Below are positions 22,201 through 58,846 of a stretch of DNA of 64,000 nt, piece by piece; within the stretch, counting starts at the first letter, position 1; every line of letters begins with the position of its first letter. A program made the translations under genes and the position numbers. The notes under the pieces are model-generated. The model ran no database searches. It had not been told where the DNA came from and saw only the letters and a program-made list of their open reading frames with translations. This stretch comes from a virus (taxonomy: Duplodnaviria; Caudoviricetes): the IMG/VR virus record IMGVR_UViG_3300027996_003878, one strand, 5' to 3'.

Positions 22201-22237
22201 AAAAAAAAGCTCCCCGCCGTAGCGGGGAGCTTTTTTC
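22201..22237. terminator. bidirectional intrinsic terminator
   Basis: AAAAAAAAGCTCCCCGC-CGTA-GCGGGGAGCTTTTTT. Confidence 0.9.
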
Positions 22238-23323
22238 TTATTCGAGCATTGATTCGAGGATGTTGGAGCCAAGCTGCTCCGACTCGACGCCCGCCTCGGT
22301 TGCCTCGGGCACGCTCATGTACTCGCTCGTTCCATCGGCCAACATGACCTCGACCAGGTATTCCACTGTTTCGAGGTGCTGGGCTGCCTTGGCAGCCCGC
22401 GACCCATACATGGCCTCCAGCCGGGTCGTGCCTTTACGGGTGCCTCGCTCGCTGCCGTCCACGTGCCTGTCTAGCAGGAACGTGGCTGCATTCCAAAGCG
22501 TAGCAAGGTTCTGACCGTCCCCGATTCTATTGATCGGATTGGCCATGGCTTGCTCGAACTCAGTCACGCGCTTATGATATCGCGTGACCGCGTTTTTTGA
22601 AGCGTCCTCGCCAACTGGCGAGATGAACGTATCGAATGCCGTACGCGCTTGCGTCCACGTCAGGCGCTTGCTTGTCGTTTCGAGCAACGCTGCCATACTG
22701 CCGCCTTCAGCGACGATCTTGGGCAGCGCATCCTTAATCGCACGGACCTTGCCATCAAGCCCGCGAGTATGTTTGATCTTGGCCCATTCCGCGCCATCTT
22801 GGTCAAGCGCGGCTTTGAGCGTGTTTGCGCACACGACTCGGATCGACGTGCCGCCCATGCAAAGGCGCAGCGAGCCGTCGAAGCTATCGGCAATGGTTAG
22901 GTACTGATGTACCCCGCCGATCTCTCCAAGGGAAAAGACGGCAACCTGGCGCTTGCCGTCGTGCAAGCTGAACATGCCAGCCGGCTTGGCTCCGGCCAAG
23001 GTGGCAGCTATGCAAAGCTGCCGGAAGTCTTCAGGAAGGAGCGGGTTATACCGCGCCCCATTAAGACCCACCACAATGGGCGGGGCGGTGTCGTAAAGCG
23101 CAATTAGCGCTTTTTTGTCATCGGCTTGGATCTCCAAGCCGCCATCGGTCACAAAGACCGGCGTGTGAACTTCCAACGCGGTAGCTACCGCGTTGAGTCT
23201 TGTGCCATGGGTGAACATCTGCTCGCCTGTCTGGCACTCCTCGTCTGGAATTAGGGTTTCAGCGCCGTGCCACGTCCGGCCAGAAGATTCGACGAAAAAA
23301 CCACGATTGAAACATGCAGGCAT
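22238..23323 (-). CDS. DUF932 family protein (GC-rich gene)
   Basis: WHG, AGMFSLHDGKR, YLTIADSFDGS, TSIRVVCANTL, TLWNA motifs; start MPACF after GGAG SD; tandem promoters upstream. Confidence 0.85.
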   Translation of the reverse strand: MPACFNRGFFVESSGRTWHGAETLIPDEECQTGEQMFTHGTRLNAVATALEVHTPVFVTDGGLEIQADDKKALIALYDTAPPIVVGLNGARYNPLLPEDFRQLCIAATLAGAKPAGMFSLHDGKRQVAVFSLGEIGGVHQYLTIADSFDGSLRLCMGGTSIRVVCANTLKAALDQDGAEWAKIKHTRGLDGKVRAIKDALPKIVAEGGSMAALLETTSKRLTWTQARTAFDTFISPVGEDASKNAVTRYHKRVTEFEQAMANPINRIGDGQNLATLWNAATFLLDRHVDGSERGTRKGTTRLEAMYGSRAAKAAQHLETVEYLVEVMLADGTSEYMSVPEATEAGVESEQLGSNILESMLE

Positions 23324-23640
23324 AATTGACTTCTCCAATATTTTTTGGAATCGGACTGTCCGACTCACTACTAATGTAATCACGCTACTTGGAACGTCAA
23401 GGACTTTTGTTTAATCCTTGTTTTGTCTCGCCCCGTTCACATTGTTAATATAATCACGCTGCTCCCCTTGTCAATTATTCAAACGAAAAAAAGCCCGTTT
23501 TGCCGCTTTTTTCCAAAAAGCGCCGAAAACTGACAAAAAAGGAAAGAAAGCGCCAGATCCCGCGAGTTTCTGAGAAAAGCTCCCGGCAATATTGCGCGCC
23601 CGCTCCGCGTGGCCCCGGCAAAACCCCACTTATGGCTCAA

Positions 23641-24290
23641 AATAAGCCCAATATATCCAATAAGCCCAATATATCTAATATATCTAATATATCTAATATA
23701 TCTAATATCTCTAGCGTAGCTTTATATTAGCGTAGCTTTAGATTGACACATCTTTATATTGAGCAAGGTGGCTTTACTTTGATTTAATAAAAGGGGCGGG
23801 AGAATAAACAGGAGAGAATAAGCAAGGGAAATAAACAGGAGGGAGAGGTAAATAGCTAAATTGAATTGAGCGAAGCTTTATATTATTGAATTGAGCGTAG
23901 CGAAGCTTTACATTAGCGAAGCAGCTATTGAATTGGGGGCAAATAAAAAAAAGGCGGAAGAAAATATATTTACCTCTTTACCTCTTTAGCGTAGCGTAGC
24001 TTTATATTAGCGTAGCTTTATATTAGCAGAGAAAACCTGTCTTTACTTTAATCCTTTCCCTTACCTCTATCTTTACCTTAGAGAAGCTTTATGCTATCTT
24101 TTAATTTATAACCATGCAAAAACAAATAAAAAGAATAGATAAGTTTATATCTTCTTCTGTACCTAGAGGATTACATATACCTTTAGGACTTATATTGGGA
24201 TTTACATTAAGCTTTGTTTTACTTACTCTTATAAAAGCAGCTTTACATTAGCGAAGCTTTACATTAGCGAAGCAGCTATTGAATTGAATT
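23641..24290 (+). repeat. iteron-like repeat cluster
   Basis: AATAAGCCCAATATATC x2, AATATATCT tandem x4-5, 16-bp TAGCGWAGCTTTAYAT at 23712, 23728, 23868, 23898, 23992, 24008, 24249; inverted repeat AGAGGTAAATA/TATTTACCTCT. Confidence 0.85.
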
Positions 24291-26204: not shown

Positions 26205-27344
26205 TTATCCTGCGTGTTCTCTTAAAATATTAAGCATGCGTCGAAGCGGTTCTGCCGCTCCCCAAAGAAGCTGATCTCCAACGCTAAATGCTCCCAGATA
26301 AGTTGGACCCATTTTTAATTTATGAATCCTTCCAATTGGTATATTTAATGTTCCGGTTGTTGCTGCCGGGCTGAGTTGGCGTATTGTATCTTCTTTATTA
26401 TTATCAACTGCGGTAACCCATTGATTCGCTTGATCAATAACTTCAACAATCTCATCCAACGGAATATCCTTGCGAAGCTTAATTGTAAAAGCTTGGCTGT
26501 GGCAACGCATGGCTCCGATTCGAACGCATATTCCATCGATGGGAATTGCATTATTCTTGGTGTCAAGGATTTTGTTTGTTTCCGAGTGTCCTTTCCACTC
26601 CTCTCTTGTCTGACCGCCTTCAACCTTTCGATCAATCCAAGGAATCAAAGAAGCAGCCAAAGGAGCGCCAATCATAGAAGTGGGGTGATTATTTGATCGA
26701 ATTGCCTCAGTAACAGCGCGATCAATATGCAAGACTGAACTTGATGGATCACGAAGGAGATCTTGATTATAAGTATCAATACTACTGGAAGCCAAGTGAC
26801 TCATTTGAGATACAAGCTCTTTTAGCTGCTTTGCGCCCGCTCCGCTTGCTGCCTGATAGGTCATTGAACTAAGCCACTCAACCCAACCTTCTCGAAAAAG
26901 GCCGTGAAGAGAAAGCAACATCAAACTAACAGTACAATTCCCACCAATAAAGTCCAAAATGCCATTTTTGATGCCGCTATCAATGGCTTCTCTATTGATT
27001 GGATCAAGAGCAATCAATGCATCGTCATCCATACGCCGAGCGCTAGCTGCATCAATCCAAAAGCCCTTCCAACCAGCTTTTCGCAGTGGCCCTAACACCT
27101 CACGTGTATAATCACCGCCTTGACAGCTTATAATGACGTCATTTATTTTCAACGCATCTATACTCTTTGCATCATCAAGTTTGCCGCAATCCCTTCCTAC
27201 GTCAGGAGCAGGCATTCCCACTTGTGAGGTTGAGTAAAACCGAGGCTCAAGACCTTCAAAGTCTTTTTCAACACGCATGCGATCCATCAACACCGAGCCG
27301 ACCATGCCGCGCCATCCAACCATACCGAGTTTTTTTATTTTCAT
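26205..27344 (-). CDS. asd: aspartate-semialdehyde dehydrogenase
   Basis: GWRGMVGSVL, GGNCTVSLML, TYQAASGAGA, CVRIGAMRCHSQ, GDQLLWGAAEP. Confidence 0.98.
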   Translation of the reverse strand: MKIKKLGMVGWRGMVGSVLMDRMRVEKDFEGLEPRFYSTSQVGMPAPDVGRDCGKLDDAKSIDALKINDVIISCQGGDYTREVLGPLRKAGWKGFWIDAASARRMDDDALIALDPINREAIDSGIKNGILDFIGGNCTVSLMLLSLHGLFREGWVEWLSSMTYQAASGAGAKQLKELVSQMSHLASSSIDTYNQDLLRDPSSSVLHIDRAVTEAIRSNNHPTSMIGAPLAASLIPWIDRKVEGGQTREEWKGHSETNKILDTKNNAIPIDGICVRIGAMRCHSQAFTIKLRKDIPLDEIVEVIDQANQWVTAVDNNKEDTIRQLSPAATTGTLNIPIGRIHKLKMGPTYLGAFSVGDQLLWGAAEPLRRMLNILREHAG

Positions 27345-29157: not shown

Positions 29158-30183
29158 TTAAATTTTTTCATTTTGTTTAATTAATTCCTCGCGAGTTTTG
29201 GCTCCCACAATTCCGTCTGCTGTTAAATTATTTTTACTCTGAAAAAGTAGAACCTGATCTCTAGTCACCGACCCAAAGTCCCCATCAGCGCCATAAGGGT
29301 TAAGGTTGTAATTAAGATTTAAAAGAATTTCTTGCATTTCTCTAACATCGCTGCCTTTCATTGAATATTTTAGCACTCTCCAGTCGTAATCTGGCTGATC
29401 TGGCTTATCAGGATTGCAAGGCGAAGGCCCATGCGTTGATGTTCTTGGATAAATGGTATCAATAAGAGGCCCCTCGCTGGATATGATTTTACATAATTCG
29501 TTATCCTTTAATAAATCACGAATATCTGACTCACAACCATTTAAATAACATTTCTTTTTAACTAAACCTGTAATGAGTTGTGAGTAATCTGTAAATGTAT
29601 CTACATGAGCTGTAGCTAAAGGTTGAAGGACATAACTGTTTTTAGAAACAGATGGGTAGGGCGAGGATGCGACATGCCATCCATAATTTGCAGCTTTTCC
29701 TTCATTTTGACCAAAAATACGGTTTGATAAAACAAAAGACTTGCCAACCGTCCACAACAAGCCGGCTCTGCCGGCCCTCTCAGACTCAATCGCTTCACTG
29801 TGCTTTACAAAACGGCTTGTGTAAGCCATTTGAGAGTCAGGCGTTTGAGTGTGAGGTTTTAGTGTAAAATTTTTACGCCTAGCTTCATCCCAAATAAGGT
29901 CACATATTTTTGCAGTAGGTAAAATACAACCAAGATGCTCAGCTATAGCGCACGCAGTCAATGCGCTTGCAGCCACACGAACAGAGTCATCAGATTGCCC
30001 AACCTGAAGCGCATCTTCAGCTACATCCATGTGAAGTAAATTATCGCCATAATTAATTTCGATAGGTGTAAAATTTAATACATAATTACCATCAAGAACT
30101 GCTTGATATATTTTATCTTCTCTTTCTTGCGTTGGTTGCTCGGGTAAAGTTTTAAGCCACTCACTTGCCTTCATAACTAGCAC
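29158..30183 (-). CDS. protein with C-terminal peptidoglycan-binding domain
   Basis: LKYSMKGSDV..MQ..L...ADGDFG..T...V..FQ...LTADGIVG..T. Confidence 0.85.
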   Translation of the reverse strand: MLVMKASEWLKTLPEQPTQEREDKIYQAVLDGNYVLNFTPIEINYGDNLLHMDVAEDALQVGQSDDSVRVAASALTACAIAEHLGCILPTAKICDLIWDEARRKNFTLKPHTQTPDSQMAYTSRFVKHSEAIESERAGRAGLLWTVGKSFVLSNRIFGQNEGKAANYGWHVASSPYPSVSKNSYVLQPLATAHVDTFTDYSQLITGLVKKKCYLNGCESDIRDLLKDNELCKIISSEGPLIDTIYPRTSTHGPSPCNPDKPDQPDYDWRVLKYSMKGSDVREMQEILLNLNYNLNPYGADGDFGSVTRDQVLLFQSKNNLTADGIVGAKTREELIKQNEKI

Positions 30184-30266: not shown

Positions 30267-31019
30267 ATGAAATTGCACGAAGGTTATGAAAAAAGGCCCG
30301 GTTCTATATATTTTCTGGACTGTGAAGACACACCATTAACTGAAGCCGAGGCCACATACTATTTAAAAGAAGCGTGGCGGAAGATTTATGGAGAATACCC
30401 AAGCTTAGATTCACTGGCGTTATTATGGGCTCAATCAGCCGGAGAGACTGGTCGTTGGAAAAGTCTTCGTAATTACAATTGGGGTAATATAAAGCGCCTT
30501 AAGGATGGCTACTGGACGTCTTACGTTGCTGGTGAGGTTATTCGCGGACGCCATCAGATGTTTTACCCTTATCATCCAGAAACATATTTTGCAGCCTGGA
30601 AGACGGCTCTAGAGGGTGCTGAAGGTTACATTCGTTTCTTATCAACACGGCAGCGGTATAGATTAGCATGGGAGGAAATTAGAAAAGGAGATCCTGTTGC
30701 TTATTGCACTGAATTAAAATTAGCAGGTTACTTTACAGCAGATTTAGGTCATTATACTCGCGGTGTAGTAAGTCTAGTAAAAGAATTTAAAAATCGCTCT
30801 GAGGAATTAGTTACCTATCACCCTCCGATTAAAGATATAGAGGTAGAAGTAAAGATTGAAAGGTTTGAAAAAGTTAAGTCCCTAGAAGCAGGGCAAGAAG
30901 AAGAATCAAAAGAAAAAGAGCAAGTAGCATTAACTTTAAAGCCATCAATAAGAGCCCATATATTTAATTTTATTATAAATTTTATAAAAAAAATCGCCTC
31001 ACTAATGAAGTTAAAATAG
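30267..31019 (+). CDS. glucosaminidase-like (GH73/lysozyme-fold) peptidoglycan hydrolase
   Basis: AQSAGETG...NYNWGNIK, L..AGYFTA...Y. Confidence 0.75.
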   Translation: MKLHEGYEKRPGSIYFLDCEDTPLTEAEATYYLKEAWRKIYGEYPSLDSLALLWAQSAGETGRWKSLRNYNWGNIKRLKDGYWTSYVAGEVIRGRHQMFYPYHPETYFAAWKTALEGAEGYIRFLSTRQRYRLAWEEIRKGDPVAYCTELKLAGYFTADLGHYTRGVVSLVKEFKNRSEELVTYHPPIKDIEVEVKIERFEKVKSLEAGQEEESKEKEQVALTLKPSIRAHIFNFIINFIKKIASLMKLK

Positions 31020-32149: not shown

Positions 32150-33205
32150 ATGAAACGCCAAAACATACTTATAAATTCAATCAGTAAGCTTGCAAGTAAA
32201 TTTTTGAAGCTTGCCAAGGCTCCCAGTGGAATTGTTACGTATCATGGTACAAATGCGCGGTTTTTGAATAATATGCTTCAAGAAGGAATTCTTTCAAAAG
32301 TACCTCCAGGATCTTATCACAAAGACAAGGCAGTTTATCTAACGAATGACATAAGCCAGGCTGCAAGATACACTCTAAAAGAAGATTTACCCATGATTTT
32401 AGAGCTGTATTTATCAACACCGAAGCGGTTAAAAAAAATAAAACATGATTTGCTTGATCGGTATGATTGGGGCGACTTTGAATCAGAATGGCAGGAAGAG
32501 CTAATATATTTATCTAAAGATCTAAGTGAAGTTCTAGGAGGCTGGGAAAGAGAGATCGAACAAGCCCTTGTAACTGACAATGAGATTCATGAAATTATAG
32601 GTATGAATGTTTACAAACTTATATTATCAATAGCAAGAGAAAATAATTTAAACATTCAAGATGTAAAAAATAAACTTAAAAAACTTCCAAAAAGTGATCC
32701 AAATAATTTCTTTTTTTACATATCACATGATGGTACGCTCCAACCTACCAAATATTATTATGATTGGATGCACCAAATGAAGTATCCAACCACATTGCCT
32801 CCTTCTGTTATAAAATATGTTTGGCTGCCTGAACGTAATTTAAAAAATGAGCATAAAAATAATGCGCTAAATGCCAATCAAATCTATAGCAACTATTTGC
32901 CGGGCGATTTGGACCACATAAGAAGCTCCATAGAAAATGCATTTAAGGGTATCTATGGCACGGAGACGAGCGAGGAGGACAAAGAGCGCTTGTTAGTCGA
33001 TTTAAAAGATATAAATGATGATTTTAAAGATTCAACTAAAGAGCTGTTAGAGGAAGTTAAAGGCACGGCTCCTGAGGAATTGAGCGATATTGATTATTAT
33101 GAATTTATTCCTCAGGAAGGCGAGCAGGCTCTAAGCGACAATTACCTTAGATTTGACATTGATTATGTCAAATCTAAGGGAATAAGCTCAATGTTAAAAA
33201 GCTAG
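32150..33205 (+). CDS. ART-fold protein with shared leader
   Basis: YHGT..FL..M..EGI...VYLT.D...A.RY. Confidence 0.65.
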   Translation: MKRQNILINSISKLASKFLKLAKAPSGIVTYHGTNARFLNNMLQEGILSKVPPGSYHKDKAVYLTNDISQAARYTLKEDLPMILELYLSTPKRLKKIKHDLLDRYDWGDFESEWQEELIYLSKDLSEVLGGWEREIEQALVTDNEIHEIIGMNVYKLILSIARENNLNIQDVKNKLKKLPKSDPNNFFFYISHDGTLQPTKYYYDWMHQMKYPTTLPPSVIKYVWLPERNLKNEHKNNALNANQIYSNYLPGDLDHIRSSIENAFKGIYGTETSEEDKERLLVDLKDINDDFKDSTKELLEEVKGTAPEELSDIDYYEFIPQEGEQALSDNYLRFDIDYVKSKGISSMLKS

Positions 33206-41300: not shown

Positions 41301-42173
41301 TCATTGGCAATTTTTTGCGTCACTGTACCCACGATCAATCATTTTACTAATATCACTAGAGTCAAAATTAAACAGATCGTCATTTAACGAAACGCTTGGC
41401 CTAATAATTCGTATTTTTATATCGCTATACTTACTTACAACTAAATCATTGTCCAAGCCAATTGAATGAAAGTCAGCTGCCATAATTCTATCGGTCATTA
41501 AGTCTAAGCTACGATAAGCAATATCTAAAACTGACCACCATCTCCCAGAAGGACGCCACTCTTTTGTATAAGAATTACCGGGAGAGCATGAAATTACATC
41601 AATATATTTGGCCCCAAGCCTTATTGCCTGACCAATTGGCGTACTAACTTTTATTCCACCATCAATCCACCACTTACCATTGATTATTTTCGGCTTCATA
41701 ATAACAGGCAAGCTTGCTGAAGCTACCGCCCATTCATCAAGATTAAAATCATTTTCACTAGAAAAATATTTTTCTCCAGTATTTAGACAAACAGCTCCAA
41801 TTCTAACATTTTTATTAGAATTTCTTATTTTCTCTATATCAAAGTCTGACTTTATTAACTTTATTAGCGGGCTTGAGTCAAATATAGACCATTTCCATAG
41901 CGCAGATATTTTTCCAAAAGGCTTCCAACCGCAAAATATTCTGGAAACTGTCAAGTCATGCCAAATATTATATAAATTATCATAAGCTTCAGAAGAATCA
42001 CCCAAGGGAATTGCGGCAAGCTTTAAAGCATTTAAAGCGCCAACGCTCACACCACATAAAATGTCGTAATCTAAGCCGTCCTCTTTAAGCCATTTTTTTA
42101 AAACGCCAACTTGGTAGGCGCCCTTTATACCTCCACCAGAAAGGACCAATGCTCGCTTGTTAGATTCTTTCAT
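41301..42173 (-). CDS. patatin-like phospholipase
   Basis: LSGGGIKGAYQ, GVSVG, DGG. Confidence 0.95.
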   Translation of the reverse strand: MKESNKRALVLSGGGIKGAYQVGVLKKWLKEDGLDYDILCGVSVGALNALKLAAIPLGDSSEAYDNLYNIWHDLTVSRIFCGWKPFGKISALWKWSIFDSSPLIKLIKSDFDIEKIRNSNKNVRIGAVCLNTGEKYFSSENDFNLDEWAVASASLPVIMKPKIINGKWWIDGGIKVSTPIGQAIRLGAKYIDVISCSPGNSYTKEWRPSGRWWSVLDIAYRSLDLMTDRIMAADFHSIGLDNDLVVSKYSDIKIRIIRPSVSLNDDLFNFDSSDISKMIDRGYSDAKNCQ

Positions 42174-46689: not shown

Positions 46690-47043
46690 ATGGCTGTAAA
46701 AAAGCATAAAAATATGATCTCCCTTACAGCAAAAGCTATTAATAAAATCAAAGAAATAGCCAAAGAAGAAGATATAAATGATCTGTGTCTAAGAATGAAA
46801 ATAATAGGCGGCGGATGTGCTGGATTTTCATATGATGTTTTTTTTGAACATTTAGAGAACGTTACAGATTTTGACGAGACGTTTAAAAATGAAGATATAA
46901 CTATTTGCATTGACCCATTAAGTTTTCAATATTTAAGTGGTTGTGAGATGGATTTTGTTACATCAAACTTCGGAGCAGGATTTAAATTTAAAAACCCAAA
47001 TGTGACATCTACATGCGGATGCGGGTCTTCAGTTTCATTTTAA
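46690..47043 (+). CDS. iscA: HesB/IscA/ErpA iron-sulfur cluster assembly protein
   Basis: GGGCAGFSY, NPNVTSTCGCGSS. Confidence 0.95.
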   Translation: MAVKKHKNMISLTAKAINKIKEIAKEEDINDLCLRMKIIGGGCAGFSYDVFFEHLENVTDFDETFKNEDITICIDPLSFQYLSGCEMDFVTSNFGAGFKFKNPNVTSTCGCGSSVSF

Positions 47044-47262: not shown

Positions 47263-48498
47263 ATGGAAGATCGTTGGACAGATATCGTGCGCCCGTATTC
47301 TTTGGAAGATGTTAAAAGAATACGAGGCAGTATAAGAATAGACCAAACTTGGGCAAAATTAGCTTCAGAAAAACTTTGGCGTTTGATGAAGCAAAACGCC
47401 CCAGTTCGCGCACTTGGCGCAATGACTGGAAACCAAGCGATACAGCAAGTGCGCGCTGGCCTTAAGGCAATTTATGTAAGTGGCTGGCAGACGGCAGCGG
47501 ATGCAAATAGTGGTCGTCAGATGTACCCAGATCAAAGCTTATATCCTGTAAATGCTGTCCCATTGCTGATTGAAAGAATTAATAATGCACTTCAAAGATC
47601 AGACGAAATAGACGTCGCAGAAGAAAAATCAGACATTGATTGGCTTGTGCCACTTGTGGCGGATGCAGAGGCCGGATTCGGCGGTGTATTAAATGCATAC
47701 GAATTAATGAAATCAATGATTAAAGCGGGCGCTGCGGGCGTTCACTTTGAAGATCAATTAAGCAGCGAAAAAAAATGTGGTCATCTAAATTCCAAAACTT
47801 TAGTGCCTACGTCTAGCTTCATTAGAACCCTAACTGCTGCAAGATTAGCCGCAGATGTTTTAGAGGTTCCTACGGTTTTGATTGCAAGAACAGATGCAGA
47901 AAGCGCTGGATTTATAACTAGCGACGTAGACCCCCGCGATCATGATTTTATTGACAAATCAGAAAGAACTCCTGAAGGTTTTTTTAAGTTATGTGGAGAT
48001 CCTATGGAAAGATGCATACGAAGGGGACTTGCTTACGCACCCTACTCAGATCTAATTTGGATGGAAACATCCACTCCTAACCTAGGGCAGGCTAAAAAAT
48101 TTGCAGATGCAATTCATGAAAAATACCCAAATAAAAAATTAGCATACAATTGCAGTCCAAGCTTTCATTGGAAGAAATTCTTATCCTCCAACGAAATGAA
48201 AGACTTTCAAACGGAACTTGGAAAATTAAATTATACTTTTCAATTTATAACTTTAGCAGGTTTTCATGCCTTAAACTTTAGCATGTTTGAGTTAAGTCAG
48301 AATTATAAAAATAGCGAAATGTTGGGGTATTCTTCTTTGCAGGAAAAAGAATTTGAAGCCTATTCGCAGGGATACACCGCAATAAGGCACCAACATGAAG
48401 TTGGCGTTTCCTATTTTGATGAAGTTCGCAAGGTTATAAATGGTGGAGATGATAGCATGTCTGCTCTTACCGGCAGCACCGAAGACGACCAATTTTAA
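47263..48498 (+). CDS. aceA: isocitrate lyase
   Basis: [55 protein letters not shown]. Confidence 0.98.
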
Positions 48499-48513
48499 TA
48501 GGAAACAATTAAT

Positions 48514-49287
48514 ATGAAAGTTTTAAGAAAAGGCGCTAAAGGTCCAGGCGTAAAGGCTTGGCAAATTTTTTTACGAGGGCAAGGCTACCATATTATAGCT
48601 GATGCTGACTTTGGAAAAAAGACAGTGTCAGCCACTAAGGCTTTTCAAAAAAAGAAAAGACTTGTCGCTGACGGTGTTGTTGGCAATGCAACCTACGCCG
48701 TTGCAATGCTATTGGGGTTCGAGGTCATAAAAGATGATGAGTCTGACATTTACAGCGCCAACTGGCCTCCAAAGCCAGATTTTAAGCCAATAGTTGGAAC
48801 CGCTGCACGTCAAAGAATTTTTGGAAAATTCAATTTCAAGCGGATGAGAGTTAAAGGCAACCCAGAGGCGATTAGAATATTAGATAATTGGGTTGAAGAA
48901 AATATAGTTTATGTAAAAATCCCACAATTAATAGGCGTCAAAGGCACTTATAGAAGAAAAACATTCGCATTTCATAAGTTAGTCGCAGAGCCTGTTAAAG
49001 ATTTATTTCAGGCCTGGGATGATGAGGGATTGTCTGATCTTATTCTTTCGTGGGGAGGTTCTTTCGTACCTAGATTTATAAGAGGATCAAACACAAGCTT
49101 AAGCAATCACAGCTTTGGAAGTGCGTTTGATATAAATGTTCCATGGAATTATTTAGGAGCACGGCCGGCTTTAGTCGGTAAAAAGGGATCAGTAAGAAAG
49201 CTTGTGCCAATTGCCAATGAATTAGGATTCTATTGGGGCGGTCATTTCCGACGCAAAGATGGAATGCACTTTGAGTTCTGCGGATAA
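48514..49287 (+). CDS. peptidoglycan-binding domain + M15 family peptidase (endolysin-like)
   Basis: PGBD (ADADFG..T..A..AFQ...ADGVVG); SNHSFGSAFDIN, DGMHFE. Confidence 0.9.
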   Translation: MKVLRKGAKGPGVKAWQIFLRGQGYHIIADADFGKKTVSATKAFQKKKRLVADGVVGNATYAVAMLLGFEVIKDDESDIYSANWPPKPDFKPIVGTAARQRIFGKFNFKRMRVKGNPEAIRILDNWVEENIVYVKIPQLIGVKGTYRRKTFAFHKLVAEPVKDLFQAWDDEGLSDLILSWGGSFVPRFIRGSNTSLSNHSFGSAFDINVPWNYLGARPALVGKKGSVRKLVPIANELGFYWGGHFRRKDGMHFEFCG

Positions 49288-49324
49288 AAACTAAAAAATT
49301 CAATAAAAAAAAGCTACAAATTAA

Positions 49325-50920
49325 ATGAATAAAATATTATTTCCAGAATTAAAAAACGAAAACGAGAAAAAAATACTTTCTCCAGAAGCGCTTAACTTTC
49401 TAAAAGATTTATTTAATGAGTTTAATGGCAAAATAAAAAATTTATTAAAGCTAAGAGTTCGAGATGCTAAATTAATTTCAGATGGTCAGCTGCCAAATTT
49501 TCTAGAAGAGACAGAGGGTATTAGAAATTCCACTTGGCAAATCTCTTCGGTACCAAAAGACCTTCAAGATCGTAGAGTAGAAATTACAGGTCCGGTTGGA
49601 AGAAAAATCATAATTAACGCCCTTAACTCTGGCGCTAATGTTTTCATGGCTGATTTTGAAGATTCAAACTCACCGACCTGGAAAAACACTTTAGATGGAC
49701 AGATAAATCTCTTTGATGCTGTAAGAGAAGAAATAAGTTTATTTGATAAAGTAAAAAATAAAGAATATAAATTAAATAAAGATCACGCAACCTTGATGGT
49801 AAGACCTCGTGGCCTTCACTTACTTGAAAAAAATATTCTCATAGAAGACGAACCAATCCACGGCTCTTTAGTTGATTTTGGCTTGTACTTTTTTCACAAC
49901 GCACAAGAGCTTTTAGACAAAGGCTCCGGGCCTTACTTTTACTTACCAAAAATAGAGCACTTTAGAGAAGCTGCTCTATGGAATGAAGTATTTAATTTCT
50001 CACAAGATAAGTTAAATATTAAAAGAGGTACAATAAAAGCTACTGTTTTAATCGAAACTTTACCAGCTGCATTTCAGATGAATGAAATATTGTATCAGCT
50101 TAAAGATCATTCCGCCGGGCTGAACTGTGGAAGATGGGATTACATTTTTAGTTTTATAAAAACGCTAAAAGATCACGAGCAATTTACCCTTCCAAATCGA
50201 AGTGATTTGACAATGGATAAGCATTTTATGAGATCTTATACGCAATTGTTGATTCAAACATGTCACAAAAGAAAAGCACACGCTATGGGCGGCATGTCTG
50301 CATTTATACCAATTAAAAACGATGAAATGGCAAATAACGCTGCATTAGATGCCGTGAAAAAAGACAAAATGCGCGAAGTAAAAGACGGTCATGATGGAAC
50401 ATGGGTTGCGCACCCTGGATTAGTTGAAATGACAAGAAAAATCTTTGACGAGTACATGCCGACAAAGAATCAAATCAATAATAAAAGAGAAGACGTAAGC
50501 ATAACTGCAAATGATTTACTTCAAACCCCTCAAGGCGAGAGAACTGAAGATGATATTAGAAAAAATATAAACGTGTCATTGCAGTATATAAATTCCTGGC
50601 TATCAGGGACTGGCTGCGTTCCCATTAACAATTTAATGGAAGACGCAGCGACCGTTGAAATATCTAGAGCGTTAATATGGCAATGGATAAAATTTAAGGT
50701 AAAAACCGACAGCGGTATAATTGTAAGTAAAGAAAAAATTCAAAAATTACTGCTTGACGAAGTCGCCAAATTAAAAACAGATAAAAATATCAAAGAAAAC
50801 AACGAGACATTTAAAAAAGCAATTGAAATATTCTCAAATGTTTCAATGAATACAAGTAATTTTAATAATTTCCTAACAACCGATGCTTATGAAGAGCTAA
50901 TCAAAATATCCCAAACATGA
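49325..50920 (+). CDS. aceB: malate synthase A
   Basis: DRRVEITGP, ADFEDS, VRPRGLHL, GLNCGRWDYIFS, AMGGMSA, DGTWVAHP, MEDAATVEISR. Confidence 0.98.
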   Translation: MNKILFPELKNENEKKILSPEALNFLKDLFNEFNGKIKNLLKLRVRDAKLISDGQLPNFLEETEGIRNSTWQISSVPKDLQDRRVEITGPVGRKIIINALNSGANVFMADFEDSNSPTWKNTLDGQINLFDAVREEISLFDKVKNKEYKLNKDHATLMVRPRGLHLLEKNILIEDEPIHGSLVDFGLYFFHNAQELLDKGSGPYFYLPKIEHFREAALWNEVFNFSQDKLNIKRGTIKATVLIETLPAAFQMNEILYQLKDHSAGLNCGRWDYIFSFIKTLKDHEQFTLPNRSDLTMDKHFMRSYTQLLIQTCHKRKAHAMGGMSAFIPIKNDEMANNAALDAVKKDKMREVKDGHDGTWVAHPGLVEMTRKIFDEYMPTKNQINNKREDVSITANDLLQTPQGERTEDDIRKNINVSLQYINSWLSGTGCVPINNLMEDAATVEISRALIWQWIKFKVKTDSGIIVSKEKIQKLLLDEVAKLKTDKNIKENNETFKKAIEIFSNVSMNTSNFNNFLTTDAYEELIKISQT

Positions 50921-51249
50921 AAAAAGAAAAAAAACAATTAGAAGAATCTTTATACGAGCTACAGCAAAATGTTCCATTTAACTTCCTTCTATTACTTTGT
51001 GTCATATTAATGATTCTTGGTAATATAATCAGCGGAGCCATGACAGCTGGTTTGTTTATCTGGAACGCTGTTTTATTGTACTTTTCACTTAATTTCTTTA
51101 TAAATTCAATAAAGTTAAGGGCGAAAAATTTACAGGAAATTTTAGAGTCCCAAGAGGCATTTGAATTTCATGACTATGAAGAATCATCGCCTAAAAAGAA
51201 AGAGACAGGGGAGGAGGGGAGAGCAGAGAAAGATGACTCAGAGAAATGA
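50917..51249 (+). CDS. membrane protein
   Basis: Two TM segments and a charged tail. Confidence 0.7.
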   Translation: MKKEKKQLEESLYELQQNVPFNFLLLLCVILMILGNIISGAMTAGLFIWNAVLLYFSLNFFINSIKLRAKNLQEILESQEAFEFHDYEESSPKKKETGEEGRAEKDDSEK

Positions 51250-52262
51250 AGATAATTTATAGTGCAGGCAACAGAGTCGGGTCAAGCTCGCAATTATTTA
51301 GATTCTTTAATAAAGTATCAAATGAGCATAATATAAAAATAGCTGCATATATAAATTCTAGTGATCATTTTTCGCATATTAATTGGACATTAGACTCTTT
51401 TTATAACAAATATTCTGACAAGAAAGTATCCAAATTAAAAAAGATTATTGAATCAAAACATATGCCAAGAATAAGTGTGAAAGAAGCAATAAATTTCTTG
51501 GAGGATGTTGATCGGTTTGAGCCTGATCTGATAATTTCGGATGGCGAGCAAATATCCGCATTGATAGCGGCCTCATTAGGGGTAAGGCTTTGGTACTGTA
51601 GCCCTTTGCTTTTGCTAGTCAACATGAATTGCAATGAAATAGAAACAAAATATAGACACTCATTAGAAAATACAAAAAGAATAATTTCAGAACTACCAGA
51701 TGCCGAAAGAAACTTTATATACTCTCCATTTGAACTAGTAAAAGAAAGATTTTCAACAAAAGAAAATTATGAATGGATTACCCCTTACCATCATTCAGTT
51801 GAAAGTTTAGAAAAAGATGAAACGTCTTATTTAGCTGTTGTTCCTGACAGCCAACGGCAGCTTAAAATTCAAAAAACATTAAAATGCTCATTAGACAACT
51901 TTTCATTATATAATAATAGCTTCGAGTCAAGTAAAGAAAAAAAATTAAAATATACAAAGCAACTATCAGTTGCAAGCTGGGTGTTCACGACGGGCGAGAC
52001 CAGCTATCTTAGTGATGCTATTTATAATAATGTAGATAAGATGTGTATATCGCCATGTATGAAAGATTCAGAATCACTATTGAACGCATCATTGGTAAGA
52101 GCCTTTGGTTTAGGCTATGAGGCGGGTCAAATAGAGCTTTTAGATAAGTATTCAGTGTGCGAAATACAGCGATCTTTAGAGCGTGGTTATAATCATTTAA
52201 ATACAAACAAATTAAGAGTCCAAAATACTTTAGACGAAAAGGTTAAAGAAATATGCATATAG
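51246..52262 (+). CDS. degenerate GT-B glycosyltransferase-like protein (MJ1255-like)
   Basis: MKIIYS, FEPDLIISD.E, TTGETS.LSDAIY. Confidence 0.6.
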   Translation: MKIIYSAGNRVGSSSQLFRFFNKVSNEHNIKIAAYINSSDHFSHINWTLDSFYNKYSDKKVSKLKKIIESKHMPRISVKEAINFLEDVDRFEPDLIISDGEQISALIAASLGVRLWYCSPLLLLVNMNCNEIETKYRHSLENTKRIISELPDAERNFIYSPFELVKERFSTKENYEWITPYHHSVESLEKDETSYLAVVPDSQRQLKIQKTLKCSLDNFSLYNNSFESSKEKKLKYTKQLSVASWVFTTGETSYLSDAIYNNVDKMCISPCMKDSESLLNASLVRAFGLGYEAGQIELLDKYSVCEIQRSLERGYNHLNTNKLRVQNTLDEKVKEICI

Positions 52263-52918
52263 CATTTGATATAGGTAACGTTTTCTTTGAGTTAGAATTG
52301 GGCAATTTTACAGAGGAATTTGACGCTTACTTTAAAGGTAGATATGATTCAATTTTATTCTTAAAAGAACTGCAAGGTCCTCAAGATACCGGCTTAACAA
52401 ATATAAGAAGAAACTTAGAGATATTAATACATAAAATTTATCCTAAAGAAAGCTCAAGCTCAATAAACGAATCAATTGACAAGCTGTGCGGGGCTTGGTG
52501 TAATATTTTGAAACCATCAGAGATAATGTTAGAATTCTCTGAAGAATTAAAAAATGATGGGATTAAGGTTGCATTGCTAAGCAACGTTGGGCAAGAGCAT
52601 GCAGAATATTTAAGTAACAATTATTCCAATCTTTTTAATAATGCCACCTTGCATTTAAGCTATGAAGTTGGGGCTAGGAAGCCCAGCGATTTATACTTCA
52701 AAAGCTTTTTGTCGGATCATCCTGATTTTAAAAATTGCATATACTTAGATGATTTAAAAGAAAATGTAGATAAAGGATTAAAATATAAATTTGACGCTCG
52801 TGTGTTTAATATTAACGATTTTAAAAGCGCTGAAAATAAATTAAAAGAATATATTAAAAAAATCAAAGAAGATATAAAAGTCTCCAGAAATATGGCTGGA
52901 TGTGATTTTTATATATAA
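52253..52918 (+). CDS. HAD-superfamily phosphatase
   Basis: FDIGNV, LLSN, RKPS, YLDD..ENV. Confidence 0.9.
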   Translation: MHIAFDIGNVFFELELGNFTEEFDAYFKGRYDSILFLKELQGPQDTGLTNIRRNLEILIHKIYPKESSSSINESIDKLCGAWCNILKPSEIMLEFSEELKNDGIKVALLSNVGQEHAEYLSNNYSNLFNNATLHLSYEVGARKPSDLYFKSFLSDHPDFKNCIYLDDLKENVDKGLKYKFDARVFNINDFKSAENKLKEYIKKIKEDIKVSRNMAGCDFYI

Positions 52919-52954
52919 TTACGCCGGCCTTGTTATATACAATACAGGACCATA

Positions 52955-53125
52955 ATGATCTTTTATAAGAAATTAACGCAGGAAGAGGTTTTGGAGGCAA
53001 TAGCTCATTTGACCGTGCAAACTTTACCTGAAGATGTAAAAGGTGAAATAATTTTACATGCTTACGATGATGGATCTATTGAAATAACAGTGGTTGAGGA
53101 CGCTAAAGGCACTTCATTAAATTAA
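52955..53125 (+). CDS. small hypothetical protein (56 aa)
   Basis: MIFYKKLTQEEVLEAIAHL...; AGGA SD. Confidence 0.55.
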   Translation: MIFYKKLTQEEVLEAIAHLTVQTLPEDVKGEIILHAYDDGSIEITVVEDAKGTSLN

Positions 53126-53149
53126 ATATTTCTTATAAAATATCCCACT

Positions 53150-53178
53150 TGACTTGCGAAAAATTGATACCTATTATC
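53150..53178 (+). promoter_or_regulatory. sigma70-like promoter upstream of Hsp20
   Basis: TTGACT-N17-TATTAT. Confidence 0.55.
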
Positions 53179-53185
53179 ACGCAGC

Positions 53186-53692
53186 ATGCTAATGGCGTGC
53201 CTAACAAAAAAAAGGTGTCAAATGATGAATCCATATTTTACAAACCCAATAGCCAGCCTCTTTGATGAATTAACCAATATTAGCAATAATTGGGATACAA
53301 AAGATGCAAGCGCTTATGCTAATAATATATTAAATTCAAAGTCACTAACGGTAAGGTTTAGTAGCGTAGAGGATAATGATTATTATTATATAAGAGTTTT
53401 GTCTCCTGGATTTAAAGAGGATGAATTAAATATCTCAATTCAGCAAAATCGCCTCACGGTTACCGCAAAGAAGGGTGAAAAAGTAGTAAATAACTACAAT
53501 CAGCTGTTTTGCTCTGAAGTAAATGGCTTTGAAAAGTCATTTTTAATTCCGCAAAACATTGACACTGCAAAAATAACAGCAGAATATAGATCTGGCATTC
53601 TTGTTGTTTCAATTCCAAAGCAAAACATTAATAAAGAAGAGCCGCAAAATATAAAAATATCATTTGGCGATAAAGCTGCAATTCAAAATTAG
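53186..53692 (+). CDS. Hsp20/alpha-crystallin small heat shock protein
   Basis: PGFKEDELNI, FEKSF.IP..ID..KI.AEY.SGILVVSIPK; start may be the later MMNPYF. Confidence 0.92.
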   Translation: MLMACLTKKRCQMMNPYFTNPIASLFDELTNISNNWDTKDASAYANNILNSKSLTVRFSSVEDNDYYYIRVLSPGFKEDELNISIQQNRLTVTAKKGEKVVNNYNQLFCSEVNGFEKSFLIPQNIDTAKITAEYRSGILVVSIPKQNINKEEPQNIKISFGDKAAIQN

Positions 53693-53712: not shown

Positions 53713-53751
53713 AATCCCCACTGCTCTATGTTAGTAGTGGGGATTCTTTTT
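53713..53751 (+). terminator. intrinsic terminator
   Basis: ATCCCCACTGCT-loop-AGTAGTGGGGAT-TCTTTTT. Confidence 0.85.
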
Positions 53752-56959: not shown

Positions 56960-57577
56960 ATGTTTAAAGAAGCCCTTATAATTACAATGATATCTGTACT
57001 TTCACGAGAAATGCCGGATATTAACACTAAAAAAAGAACACAGCGTCGCGAATCCGTAGTAACACTAAGCAAGTTAGCCTACAAGGTGGCAGAGCGTGAG
57101 GCCCTTATTAGCAGAAAAGTTGATTCTGCGTTGCTTTTGGCAACTATGTACCGCGAAAGCAGGCTTAATATCAAAACCCCTGATGGTGACTGTAAAGCTA
57201 CAGGCTGGGGAAGTTCGCTGAGAAAAAGCTGTCCCGCAAAAGGCGTTATGCAAATAATGTCAACTAATCGTAAAATATTTAATAAACTACCTCAATCGAA
57301 ATTAGACCCTAAAATACCAAATAAAATTTCGATTAAAATGCTTTATGAACCTGAGTTGAACATAAGGTTAGGCTATGTTGCTTTGCACTATTGGAAAGAC
57401 ACATGTGGCGGCCCTCCTGGAGTTTGGATGACTGCATACCGTCGCGGCAAATGCTCTAGAAAATTTAAAATTAATCGAATTGATAAAGAGGCAAAAATTC
57501 GATGCAAAATAGCAACTATTATTCTTAAAAAGACAAATTCTTTACCAAAGAACTGGAAATGTTCAAGTGAGAATTAA
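56960..57577 (+). CDS. lytic transglycosylase (SLT-like)
   Basis: MYRES, GVMQI, LYEPELNIRLG. Confidence 0.8.
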   Translation: MFKEALIITMISVLSREMPDINTKKRTQRRESVVTLSKLAYKVAEREALISRKVDSALLLATMYRESRLNIKTPDGDCKATGWGSSLRKSCPAKGVMQIMSTNRKIFNKLPQSKLDPKIPNKISIKMLYEPELNIRLGYVALHYWKDTCGGPPGVWMTAYRRGKCSRKFKINRIDKEAKIRCKIATIILKKTNSLPKNWKCSSEN

Positions 57578-57624: not shown

Positions 57625-57656
57625 ATATGGTTATAATATTAAAATATAAAAGTGAT

Positions 57657-58154
57657 ATGAAAAAAATTCACAAAATAGCTCAATCATTTAAAGTCTCATT
57701 AGGCAGCCATGAATGCCTTTCAGACTTATTAGCATGCATGCGCGCCGTGGCTGACCTACACCAAACTCACCACTGGCAGACTAGAGGTAGTAGCTATTAT
57801 GGCGATCACTTGTTATTTGAAAGAATATACAATGAAAGCCAAAGCTTTGTTGATCAACTTGCAGAAAAAGCAATTGGCTTAGGCAATGCTGATTTGGTAG
57901 ATTTGTGCAAACAAAGCGAACTTAGACATAAAAAAATATTAGAGATGTGTGGAGAAACTTCAAATGTTTCTCCGCAAGAGATGGTCGAGCGATCTCTCAA
58001 GGCAGAAAAAAAATTAATTGAAATGACAAAGAACTCAATCAGCTCCCTTGAGAGCTGCAATCAATTGACACATGGATTAAGCAACCTACTAGAAGGAATT
58101 GCTGACGCACATGAAGGTTTTGTATATTTGTTAAAACAACGTGAAGAGGGTTAG
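57657..58154 (+). CDS. Dps/ferritin-like protein with shared leader
   Basis: HQTHHWQTRG..YYGDHLLFE.IY...VD.LAEK; final H..VYLL; N-terminus KIAQSFKVSL. Confidence 0.8.
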   Translation: MKKIHKIAQSFKVSLGSHECLSDLLACMRAVADLHQTHHWQTRGSSYYGDHLLFERIYNESQSFVDQLAEKAIGLGNADLVDLCKQSELRHKKILEMCGETSNVSPQEMVERSLKAEKKLIEMTKNSISSLESCNQLTHGLSNLLEGIADAHEGFVYLLKQREEG

Positions 58155-58339: not shown

Positions 58340-58846
58340 TCAATTAATACTTTTGCCAAATATAGATGTTGGATTAATTAAGCTTCCACCAGAGCGCACT
58401 TCAAAGTGCAAATGAGGAGATGTCCCTTTTGCGTTTCCTGTGTCTCCAACATAACCAATAACATCATTCATGCCAACCTCATCGCCAACATTAAATTTAC
58501 CAAATGAGTCCAAGTGCATATACGATGAGCGAACGTCATTGTTGTCTTGGATAATGATCATTTTTCCAGATTTACTCCCTGTCATTTTTTTAATTATTTT
58601 GCCAGGTCCTAATGGGTAGACAGGAGTACCGCGAGGGGCGAACAGATCTATCCCCCTGTGCCCGGTTGGATGTCGAGGATCAGTTGCCATATTTGGAGAA
58701 TAATCTCCAGGGTACTTGTGCTCACCAGCCCCTCTAGTGGGGTCTTGGTAGCGCTCAGCTTGCCCCTCATCAGAGCCGGAAGAAGGGAGAGTTACGCCAA
58801 GCAAATCAGCTATTGCATTAACTAGATCTTGAGTATCATTCATCAC
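58340..58846 (-). CDS. M23 family peptidase
   Basis: HRGIDL, YMHL, IGYVGDTG, PHLHFEVR. Confidence 0.93.
   Translation of the reverse strand: MMNDTQDLVNAIADLLGVTLPSSGSDEGQAERYQDPTRGAGEHKYPGDYSPNMATDPRHPTGHRGIDLFAPRGTPVYPLGPGKIIKKMTGSKSGKMIIIQDNNDVRSSYMHLDSFGKFNVGDEVGMNDVIGYVGDTGNAKGTSPHLHFEVRSGGSLINPTSIFGKSIN

What the first reader, a model, noticed from the sequence alone, without database searches (positions are those of the whole stretch)
47263..50920. Both glyoxylate-shunt enzymes (isocitrate lyase and malate synthase A) in a phage-like genome, bracketing an endolysin-like gene
Seen: full-length aceA (catalytic KKCGH intact) and aceB (RWDY, DGTWVAHP intact) on the same strand, separated only by a PG-binding/M15 peptidase, in AT-rich codon usage like the surrounding genes. 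Neighbours are phage-type genes, not a host operon, and there is no aceK or iclR in the window. Known: these two enzymes are the whole shunt and convert acetyl-CoA to C4 carbon. I do not know of this pair as a common phage auxiliary gene set. Inference: the phage reroutes host lipid or acetate carbon into biosynthesis.
Basis: partly seen in the sequence, partly recalled or inferred. Interest (0 to 1): 0.85.

Follow-up and report, generated by a model that had tools for sequence, protein, structure and literature searches.

The report
Glyoxylate-shunt genes in marine huge phage
A roughly 296-kb uncultured marine tailed phage carries intact, conserved genes for both glyoxylate-shunt enzymes with a cell-wall peptidase gene between them, but this gene pair has already been reported in marine and huge phages, so this is a well-documented example, not a discovery.

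Summary
The window encodes isocitrate lyase (47263-48498), a PG_binding_1 + M15 peptidase (48514-49287) and malate synthase A (49325-50920). All three are on the + strand and separated by 15 and 37 bases. Both enzymes pass NCBI's equivalog cut-offs and keep their catalytic motifs.

The contig is a phage. I walked from the window through 100%-identical overlaps to baseplate genes on the same record. Assemblies of 296,223, 295,897 and 296,258 bp hold window proteins. Six independent contigs cross both gene junctions, so the locus is not chimeric.

Both enzymes group with viral sequences in the trees, clearly for malate synthase and only weakly for isocitrate lyase. Their composition matches their neighbours and they are under purifying selection.

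The novelty claim does not hold. aceAB was reported in ocean viromes (2013) and in a complete 179-kb marine viral genome (2017). A 2025 preprint found it in 98 huge phages, including two genomes with the genes "one gene away".

Additions from this work:
- The usual viral order is aceB-aceA. Only this lineage has aceA-peptidase-aceB.
- An ErpA/IscA-like Fe-S carrier gene lies within 4 kb in 10 of 36 viral loci and in 0 of 80 cellular loci.
- A peptidoglycan hydrolase gene recurs next to the pair.

First readers of this scan noted the same stretch twice. The role in infection is inferred, not shown.

The parts
46690..47043 (+). ErpA/IscA-like A-type iron-sulfur carrier gene (117 aa), 220 bases upstream of the isocitrate lyase gene
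   Evidence: Pfam Fe-S_biosyn 5.2e-19. NCBIfam TIGR00049 scores 107.6, above its cut-off of 58.8. The best equivalog is ErpA at 112.1, just under its cut-off of 117. Homologues lie within 4 kb of aceA/aceB in 10 of 36 viral loci and 0 of 80 cellular loci.
47263..48498 (+). Isocitrate lyase (aceA), 411 aa, lacking the ~20-30 N-terminal residues of cellular ICLs
   Evidence: The best solved-structure matches are PDB 6lrp (E 1.6e-167) and 7cmx (E 3e-166). The KKCGH loop and all 160+ columns invariant among 11 homologues are kept. It is 83% identical to the relative L002, with dN 0.118 and saturated dS.
48514..49287 (+). Endolysin-like peptidoglycan hydrolase, with an N-terminal PG_binding_1 domain and a C-terminal Peptidase_M15_4 domain
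   Evidence: Pfam and PHROG endolysin families. The PG-binding domain resembles those of solved endolysins, including phiKZ gp144. The zinc motifs SNHSFGSAFD and DGMHFE can be read in the translation. It is 70% identical to the L002 copy in the same position, with dN/dS 0.13.
49325..50920 (+). Malate synthase A (aceB), 531 aa
   Evidence: PDB 3cux gives 3e-187. R160, E244, D272 and D440 align with the catalytic Arg and Asp and the Mg ligands of E. coli malate synthase A; the roles of these residues are from my own knowledge. All 30 viral sequences lie on one side of a 99 SH-aLRT branch.
50917..53692 (+). Co-directional downstream genes with overlapping or short gaps: a 110-aa unknown, a glycosyltransferase, a 221-aa HAD-like protein and HSP20. 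They probably share a transcription unit with the genes above.
   Evidence: ORF spacing and Pfam. No strong terminator-like site lies between 47263 and 53692. A 13-pair stem followed by a T run sits at 53713-53745. This is a consensus scan only.
57627..58154 (+). Dps/ferritin-like protein. It is part of the iron and stress gene content near the locus, and its link to the shunt genes is inferred.
   Evidence: Precomputed Pfam Ferritin. NCBIfam DpsA-like 3.8e-12, below its cut-off.
41301..42173 (-). Patatin-like phospholipase. It is a possible source of fatty acids for acetyl-CoA, but the link is speculative.
   Evidence: Pfam Patatin 8e-33. It is conserved at 69% in L002 only and absent from the other viral aceBA loci.

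Best explanation
These are functional auxiliary metabolic genes of a ~296-kb marine tailed phage. During infection the phage makes its own isocitrate lyase and malate synthase A. These open or strengthen the glyoxylate bypass in the host. Isocitrate is split into succinate and glyoxylate, and glyoxylate plus acetyl-CoA gives malate. The two CO2-releasing, NADH-producing TCA steps are skipped. Carbon is kept as C4 acids, which feed oxaloacetate, aspartate, amino acids and nucleotides for phage production. Shown here: the genes are intact, lie on a phage, are old viral lineages and are under purifying selection. Inferred: that they are expressed, when they are expressed, where the acetyl-CoA comes from, and what the benefit is. 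The M15 peptidase between them is most likely an ordinary lysis or cell-wall enzyme that shares the transcription unit, not a part of the pathway.
For: Enzyme identity: both pass NCBIfam equivalog cut-offs. Their best solved-structure matches have E-values of 1.6e-167 (ICL, 6lrp) and 3.2e-187 (MS, 3cux), with catalytic motifs kept. Phage identity: the window is 99.99% identical to JGI record Ga0233412_10000011. I walked through 100%-identical overlaps past an intein-bearing RNR, DnaB with its loader, and a TubZ/PhuZ-like tubulin. The walk reached a baseplate wedge protein (phrog_6, 1.7e-32) and a gp25-like baseplate protein (phrog_2669, 7.8e-10) on that same record. Assemblies of 296,223, 295,897 and 296,258 bp carry window proteins, and the 295,897-bp contig starts at a different point from the window. 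Not chimeric: six independent contigs cross both junctions at 99.93-99.99% identity. At least 19 seawater, marine or estuary runs hold at least half of the sampled words of the stretch, among 20 holders from 18 studies; 6 of these runs may be the source of the DNA. Long viral residence: all 30 viral malate synthases lie on one side of a 99 SH-aLRT branch against 79 cellular ones. ICL falls in a clade of IMG/VR and unnamed ~410-aa metagenome sequences. No cellular protein exceeds about 60% identity for MS or 67% for the named ICL hits. GC3 matches the neighbouring genes. dN is 0.12 for ICL and 0.25 for MS with dS saturated, measured against the syntenic relative L002, which has the same aceA-M15-aceB order. 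Other aceBA-bearing IMG/VR contigs of 111-267 kb carry a large terminase. Three papers propose the same kind of role.
Against: There is no evidence of expression and no enzyme assay. No aceK or other means of diverting isocitrate from host isocitrate dehydrogenase was seen, so flux through a lower-affinity lyase is assumed. According to the preprint, most huge phages with ICL lack malate synthase (98 against 22). This suggests that the key contribution may be ICL alone, and that 'the whole shunt' is not the selected unit. The host is unknown: the asd, ICL and MS homologues give no donor. It therefore cannot be said whether the host already has the pathway.
Confidence: 0.6

Rival explanations
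1. The module answers iron or oxidative stress, not carbon supply. The phage ErpA/IscA-like carrier keeps host 4Fe-4S aconitase loaded, and aconitase makes isocitrate. The phage ICL and MS then route that isocitrate through iron-free enzymes. This lowers NADH supply to the iron-rich respiratory chain and lowers reactive oxygen, so that infection can finish in iron-poor seawater.
For: An IscA-like gene lies within 4 kb, mostly upstream and on the same strand. This holds in the window and in 10 of 36 viral aceA/aceB loci, in at least three different arrangements, but in 0 of 80 cellular aceB loci. A Dps/ferritin-like gene, HSP20 and a thioredoxin-like gene lie in the same co-directional stretch. 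Phage C48C1 has a NifU-like gene 3 kb upstream of its ICL. Iron limitation induces the glyoxylate shunt in marine heterotrophs (PMC6618146). The role of A-type carriers in maturing 4Fe-4S enzymes is established knowledge and was not tested here.
Against: The viral loci are related to one another, so 10 of 36 is not ten independent events. The block may simply be inherited. Cellular flanks were only 4 kb. Many viral aceBA loci lack the carrier gene. There is no expression or iron-response data. This reading is compatible with the main explanation and does not exclude it.
Confidence: 0.25
2. The genes are a host-fitness cargo expressed during a lysogenic or pseudolysogenic carrier state. They help the infected cell grow on C2 compounds, as Nishimura et al. 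proposed for their aceBA virus.
For: The proposal is in PMC5332604. The genome also carries a large glycosyltransferase and sugar-epimerase cluster like the one those authors linked to surface modification.
Against: No integrase, repressor or partition genes were seen in the ~120 kb that I examined, although I ran no dedicated search. The genome architecture is that of a large lytic-type myovirus, with its own replication genes, RNR and tubulin. The contig assembles as a free ~296-kb unit in several samples and is never joined to cellular DNA.
Confidence: 0.1
3. The contig is cellular, or the locus is an assembly chimera or a contaminant, as several 'phage' records with aceBA in public phage collections are.
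For: In the phage collection most aceA/aceB hits are mislabelled Salmonella or E. coli contigs.
Against: Baseplate genes lie on the same record. Six independent contigs span the junctions. Several assemblies of about 296 kb exist. The composition is phage-like. The sequences cluster with viral clades.
Confidence: 0.02

Closest known systems
aceBA operon of the complete marine viral genome TARA_ERS478052_N000008 (179 kb; Nishimura et al. 2017, PMC5332604)
   Same: Both glyoxylate-shunt enzymes lie side by side in a large marine tailed-phage genome and are interpreted as auxiliary metabolic genes. About 30 IMG/VR loci that I retrieved have the same aceB-aceA arrangement.
   Different: Here the order is aceA, a peptidase gene, then aceB, and the genome is ~296 kb. 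I did not retrieve the TARA genome itself, so its relationship to this phage was not measured.
Isocitrate lyase and malate synthase of huge phages in the Huge Phage Genome Collection (bioRxiv 10.1101/2025.02.27.640493)
   Same: The phage size class and habitats match. [quoted passage not shown] The latter is the arrangement seen here and in L002.
   Different: The preprint gives counts only. It does not name the intervening gene, give phylogeny or describe the neighbouring Fe-S carrier gene. I could not check whether this genome is one of its two cases.
Bacterial aceBAK operon (E. coli type)
   Same: The same two enzyme families are present, at 56% (ICL) and 51% (MS) identity to enterobacterial copies, with the same catalytic residues.
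   Different: The gene order differs. No aceK kinase/phosphatase and no iclR were seen. The ICL lacks the N-terminal ~20-30 residues. A peptidoglycan hydrolase gene is inserted between the two genes.
Modular endolysins of large phages of Gram-negative hosts (phiKZ gp144 type)
   Same: An N-terminal PG_binding_1 domain is followed by a catalytic domain, and the PG-binding domain matches that of gp144.
   Different: The catalytic domain is an M15 zinc peptidase, not a lytic transglycosylase. Its lysis role is untested, and the window holds at least four other cell-wall hydrolase-like genes.

Membership tests
Isocitrate lyase (NCBIfam NF011645 / TIGR01346 equivalogs) | Full-length match above the curated equivalog cut-off | tested here: met
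   671.3 bits against a cut-off of 562, and 531.1 against 275.9. The methylisocitrate lyase models score far below their cut-offs.
Isocitrate lyase | Catalytic loop K-K-C-G-H and the conserved DAEAGFGG metal-site region | tested here: met
   Residues 170-174 are KKCGH, and D134-G141 is conserved. All columns invariant among 11 homologues are kept.
Isocitrate lyase | Cleaves isocitrate to succinate and glyoxylate | not testable with these tools
   Needs an enzyme assay or complementation of an aceA mutant.
Malate synthase A (NCBIfam TIGR01344 equivalog) | Full-length match above the curated cut-off, with the three Pfam domains | tested here: met
   756.1 bits against a cut-off of 594.5. MS_N, MS_TIM-barrel and MS_C are all above the gathering score.
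Malate synthase A | Catalytic Arg and Asp, and the Mg ligands Glu and Asp | tested here: met
   R160, D440, E244 and D272 are invariant in the alignment and align to the corresponding E. coli 3cuz residues. The residue roles come from my knowledge of the E. coli enzyme.
Virus-encoded auxiliary metabolic gene | The gene lies on a genuine viral genome, with viral genes on both sides, and is not an assembly artefact | tested here: met
   Baseplate genes lie on the same record, reached through 100%-identical overlaps. PHROG families occur at window positions 1-31 kb. Six independent contigs span the junctions.
Virus-encoded auxiliary metabolic gene | Expressed during infection and alters host metabolism | not testable with these tools
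   No cultured host is known. This needs infection transcriptomics or flux data.
aceBAK operon | Order aceB-aceA-aceK with the kinase/phosphatase present | tested here: not met
   The order is aceA-M15-aceB. No aceK-sized ORF is in the window, and no AceK family appears in the gene calls for positions 37-73 kb.
Phage endolysin (M15 peptidase type) | A cell-wall-binding domain plus an M15 catalytic domain with His-Asp-His zinc ligands | tested here: met
   PG_binding_1 3.1e-11 and Peptidase_M15_4 6.6e-15. The motifs SNHSFGSAFD and DGMHFE are present.
Phage endolysin (M15 peptidase type) | Acts in host lysis, for example with a holin or spanin partner and late expression | not tested
   I did not search for a holin. 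Several other hydrolase-like genes in the window could be the true endolysin.

The most novel reading that the evidence does not exclude
Marine huge and T4-like phages may carry a conserved iron-sparing module instead of a simple carbon-salvage pair. It would consist of an ErpA/IscA-like Fe-S carrier, sometimes ClpP and a short glutamine synthetase, aceB and aceA, and a peptidoglycan hydrolase. In this reading the phage keeps host aconitase metallated to feed its own iron-free bypass, which allows productive infection of iron-limited cells. The repeated adjacency of a cell-wall hydrolase would then reflect co-regulation with the late or lysis programme.
Probability: 0.15. Interest if true: 0.6.

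Novelty: already known. Interest (0 to 1): 0.35.

Why it matters
A phage-encoded glyoxylate bypass would mean that infected marine bacteria respire less of their carbon to CO2 and shunt more into biomass, which here is virions. It could also let them cope with iron scarcity. Both effects bear on ocean carbon and iron budgets. The idea has stood in the literature since 2013 without a single enzymatic or physiological test. This genome offers a clean, full-length, widely distributed gene pair for such tests. The linked Fe-S carrier gene gives a concrete hypothesis that can be checked against iron gradients. As a discovery claim, however, the pair in a phage is not new.

Tried and rejected
- **Own genome:** no whole genome is held for this window. 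The JGI record could not be searched as a handle.
- **Terminase:** a profile built from the terminases of three aceBA-bearing IMG/VR phages found nothing in the ~120 kb of this genome that I held. The terminase must lie elsewhere. Baseplate genes served as the hallmark instead.
- **PHROG scans with no match:** the 2212-, 980-, 736-, 703-, 562- and 727-aa proteins gave nothing. The 548- and 615-aa proteins gave only weak tail or baseplate hits.
- **Expression:** no RNA holder was listed for the locus or for the ICL gene alone. This says nothing about expression. I did not lay reads.
- **Host or donor inference:** the ICL, MS and asd homologues are all 52-67% identical to many phyla with no clear donor. 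The match of asd to the 'gamma' equivalog is the only weak hint.
- **Phage collection:** DNA similarity gave only mislabelled enterobacterial contigs.
- **Promoter scan:** sigma-70-like sites are no more frequent than in shuffled sequence (56 against 48.8 expected), so no promoter is claimed. The region upstream of ICL is poorly conserved between the window and L002.
- **Patatin as lipid source:** I considered this and did not adopt it, because the gene is shared only with L002.
- **dN/dS:** dS is saturated for ICL and MS, so only dN is reported.
- **Not used:** structure and complex prediction, because both enzymes have very strong full-length sequence matches to solved structures.
Full report

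Yes. The three ORFs lie exactly where stated, all on the + strand, separated by 15 and 37 bases. Pfam assigns them as follows:
- ICL, 5.7e-101.
- PG_binding_1 plus Peptidase_M15_4.
- The three malate synthase domains, with the TIM barrel at 5.8e-114.

NCBI's equivalog models are passed with room to spare: isocitrate lyase at 671 bits (cut-off 562) and malate synthase A at 756 bits (cut-off 594.5). The methylisocitrate lyase and malate synthase G models fall far below their cut-offs.

Against solved structures the lyase aligns end to end with bacterial ICLs (best match 6lrp, E 1.6e-167) and keeps the KKCGH loop. The synthase aligns with Bacillus anthracis and E. coli malate synthase A. It keeps the RWDY, DGTWVAHP and EDAAT segments. 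R160, E244, D272 and D440 are invariant in a 12-sequence alignment.

The lyase starts about 20-30 residues later than cellular enzymes. Its closest relatives share this feature.

The M15 protein has the zinc motifs SNHSFGSAFD and DGMHFE. Its N-terminal PG-binding domain resembles those of solved endolysins, including phiKZ gp144.

**2. Is the contig a phage, and is the locus sound?**

No whole genome is held for the window, and the window itself has no capsid or terminase gene. It does have:
- three scattered tRNAs;
- several PHROG families;
- many small unknown ORFs.

I therefore walked outwards by exact-protein look-ups. The window is 99.99% identical to JGI record Ga0233412_10000011 (120 kb). 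Successive loci overlap at 100% identity. The walk passes, in order:
- an RNR with a LAGLIDADG intein;
- DnaB with an IstB-like loader;
- a TubZ/PhuZ-like tubulin;
- a large sugar-epimerase and glycosyltransferase cluster;
- giant ORFs of 980, 2212 and 1079 aa.

The 1079-aa protein matches the baseplate wedge family phrog_6 (1.7e-32). The 142-aa protein next to it matches gp25-like baseplate families (7.8e-10). These genes lie on the same JGI record as the shunt genes, about 67-70 kb away in window coordinates. This is a tailed phage with a contractile-tail-type baseplate.

Assemblies of 296,223, 295,897 and 296,258 bp carry window proteins. The 295,897-bp contig starts at a different point from the window. 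This fits a complete genome of ~296 kb that is circularly permuted or terminally redundant.

Six contigs from different samples and assemblers cross the aceA-M15 and M15-aceB junctions at 99.93-99.99% identity. At least 19 seawater, marine or estuary runs hold at least half of the sampled words of the stretch. There are 20 holders from 18 studies, and 6 of them may be the source of this DNA. Chimerism and contamination are excluded. Earlier notes of this scan place capsid, portal and tail genes further along the same genome. My walk reached the start of that region and agrees with them as far as it went.

**3. Where do the genes come from?**

IMG/VR holds many relatives. With the two scans and ORF extraction I obtained about 36 viral loci, and nearly all of them carry both genes. 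Three of the four largest contigs (111-267 kb) encode a Terminase_6N large terminase.

In a tree of 109 malate synthases, all 30 viral sequences lie on one side of a branch with 99 SH-aLRT support. On the other side are the 79 most similar sequences from 185,579 species genomes. The window pairs with L002.

The ICL tree is less resolved. The window falls in a clade with 85 support, made of IMG/VR sequences and unnamed ~410-aa metagenome sequences. A second viral clade, L010 and phage C48C1 sit elsewhere.

No cellular protein is closer than about 60% for MS or 67% for ICL. GC3 values are like those of neighbouring genes. Against the relative L002, dN is 0.12 (ICL), 0.25 (MS) and 0.23 (M15), with dS saturated or above 1.3.

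The genes are therefore long-standing, selected residents of phage genomes, not a recent capture. Two caveats apply. Several viral sequences have atypical composition, and the trees used the quick search.

**4. Arrangement**

In about 30 viral loci the order is aceB then aceA, directly adjacent, as in bacteria. Only the window and L002 have aceA, a PG-binding M15 peptidase, then aceB.

L002 is a 45-kb contig with 68-83% protein identity and the same neighbours:
- a patatin-like gene, NUDIX and an IscA-like gene upstream;
- HSP20, an IMPDH-like gene and ThyA downstream.

L003 is a more distant relative with ICL only. It shares this genome's glycosyltransferase cluster and its Dockerin-bearing giant protein.

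No strong terminator-like site lies between 47263 and 53692. A 13-pair hairpin with a T run follows HSP20 at 53713-53745. The three genes therefore probably share a transcription unit with the next four or five genes. This rests on spacing and a consensus scan only.

**5. Recurrent neighbours**

An unbiased clustering of ORFs from the viral loci shows a conserved block in one large T4-like group. The genes in order are:
- a gp32-like gene;
- RecA/UvsX;
- a 5'-3' exonuclease;
- DnaB;
- RNR;
- an IscA-like gene (in some loci);
- ClpP;
- a short glutamine synthetase (in some loci);
- aceB;
- aceA.

A ~312-aa PG_binding_1 plus Amidase_2 gene sits directly before aceB or directly after aceA in 14 loci.

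Two associations therefore recur across lineages that differ in arrangement.

(a) An ErpA/IscA-type Fe-S carrier gene lies within 4 kb in the window and in 10 of 36 viral loci, in three different layouts. It is found in 0 of 80 cellular aceB loci. Phage C48C1 has a NifU-like gene 3 kb upstream of its ICL.

(b) A PG-binding cell-wall hydrolase abuts the pair, with an M15 domain here and an amidase domain there.

Both associations are weakened by two facts. The loci are related to one another. And huge phages carry several hydrolase genes; this window has at least five.

The first association suggests a mechanism. Aconitase, a 4Fe-4S enzyme, makes the isocitrate that the lyase consumes. A-type carriers deliver such clusters. 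Iron limitation induces the shunt in marine heterotrophs (PMC6618146). A Dps/ferritin-like gene, HSP20 and a thioredoxin-like gene lie in the same stretch.

**6. How it most likely works**

Shown: a phage genome carries intact, conserved genes for both enzymes.

Inferred: they are expressed in the infected cell and add lyase and synthase capacity. Isocitrate carbon and acetyl-CoA then end up as succinate and malate and are not lost as CO2. This supports aspartate-derived and nucleotide synthesis. The same genome region also carries asd, ThyA, DHFR and an IMPDH/GMP-reductase-like gene, and RNR lies a little further on.

The iron-sparing reading is a variant that I rate at about one in four. A carrier-state or host-fitness role, as proposed in 2017, is less likely for this genome. 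A patatin-driven lipid source is possible but unsupported beyond one relative.

**7. Comparison with what is known**

The phenomenon has been published three times:
- Hurwitz et al. 2013 found aceAB in photic-zone viromes (PMC4053976).
- Nishimura et al. 2017 described an aceBA operon in a complete 179-kb marine viral genome (PMC5332604).

The isolate phage C48C1 (Kyanoviridae) also carries an ICL, annotated as hypothetical.

The same stretch was also noted twice within this scan.

**8. Verdict**

This is a real and well-supported case, but of a known kind. The small additions are:
- independent proof of phage identity;
- the single viral malate synthase clade;
- the lineage-specific gene order with a named intervening gene;
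- the linked Fe-S carrier and hydrolase genes.

Interest is moderate to low as a discovery. The locus is useful as a test case, because no phage ICL or MS has yet been assayed.

Noticed in passing
L005, L007, L009, L012, L018, L020, L021, L023, L027, L028, L037, L039 (e.g. L012:11233-12165, L039:7739-8698): In a T4-like group of IMG/VR phages, a ~312-aa PG_binding_1 + Amidase_2 gene sits directly before aceB or directly after aceA. A cell-wall hydrolase next to the shunt genes therefore recurs with a different catalytic domain and in different positions.
   Followed up: partly
L003:5496-6554, L005:7432-8454, L007:11205-12230, L012:12152-13213 and others: A short (~350 aa) glutamine synthetase gene lies next to aceBA or ICL in at least 8 viral loci and in 0 of 80 cellular loci. 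ClpP lies just upstream of aceB in 17 viral loci. Neither gene is in this window.
   Followed up: partly
window 26205-27344 (-): A full-length aspartate-semialdehyde dehydrogenase passes the 'asd_gamma' equivalog (547 bits, cut-off 403). Its GC of 0.44 is above the window mean. Its homologues give no clear donor.
   Followed up: partly
window 22000-24000: A GC-rich island (0.49 against 0.37 for the window) holds a 381-aa DUF932 / phrog_1221 protein on the - strand.
   Followed up: no
window 32150-33205 (+): A 351-aa protein has weak PARP / ART-PolyVal ADP-ribosyltransferase matches, below the Pfam cut-offs.
   Followed up: no
L133:17730-19133 (about 35 kb beyond the window end): A TubZ/PhuZ-like tubulin gene (Pfam Tubulin; weak phrog_4733 PhuZ hit) lies beside the replication genes of this phage.
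   Followed up: no
   Followed up: no
L001 (OQ984149.1 44175-45416): The isolate phage C48C1 (Kyanoviridae, 156 kb) encodes an isocitrate lyase 52% identical to this one. It is annotated as a hypothetical protein, and a NifU-like gene lies 3 kb upstream.
   Followed up: partly
phage collection records AFYI01000007.1, AGRM01000005.1, OR850939.1, OR845679.1, OR851757.1: Records filed as phages are 0.5-Mb Salmonella contigs or short Salmonella/E. coli fragments carrying the bacterial aceBA. A naive search of phage databases for these genes returns mostly these contaminants.
   Followed up: no
window 29158-30183 (-), 30267-31019 (+), 56960-57577 (+), 58340-58846 (-): At least four more cell-wall hydrolase-like genes lie in the window: a protein with a C-terminal PG_binding_1 domain, a weak endolysin-family hit, an SLT gene and an M23 gene. 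It is open which one is the lysis enzyme.
   Followed up: no
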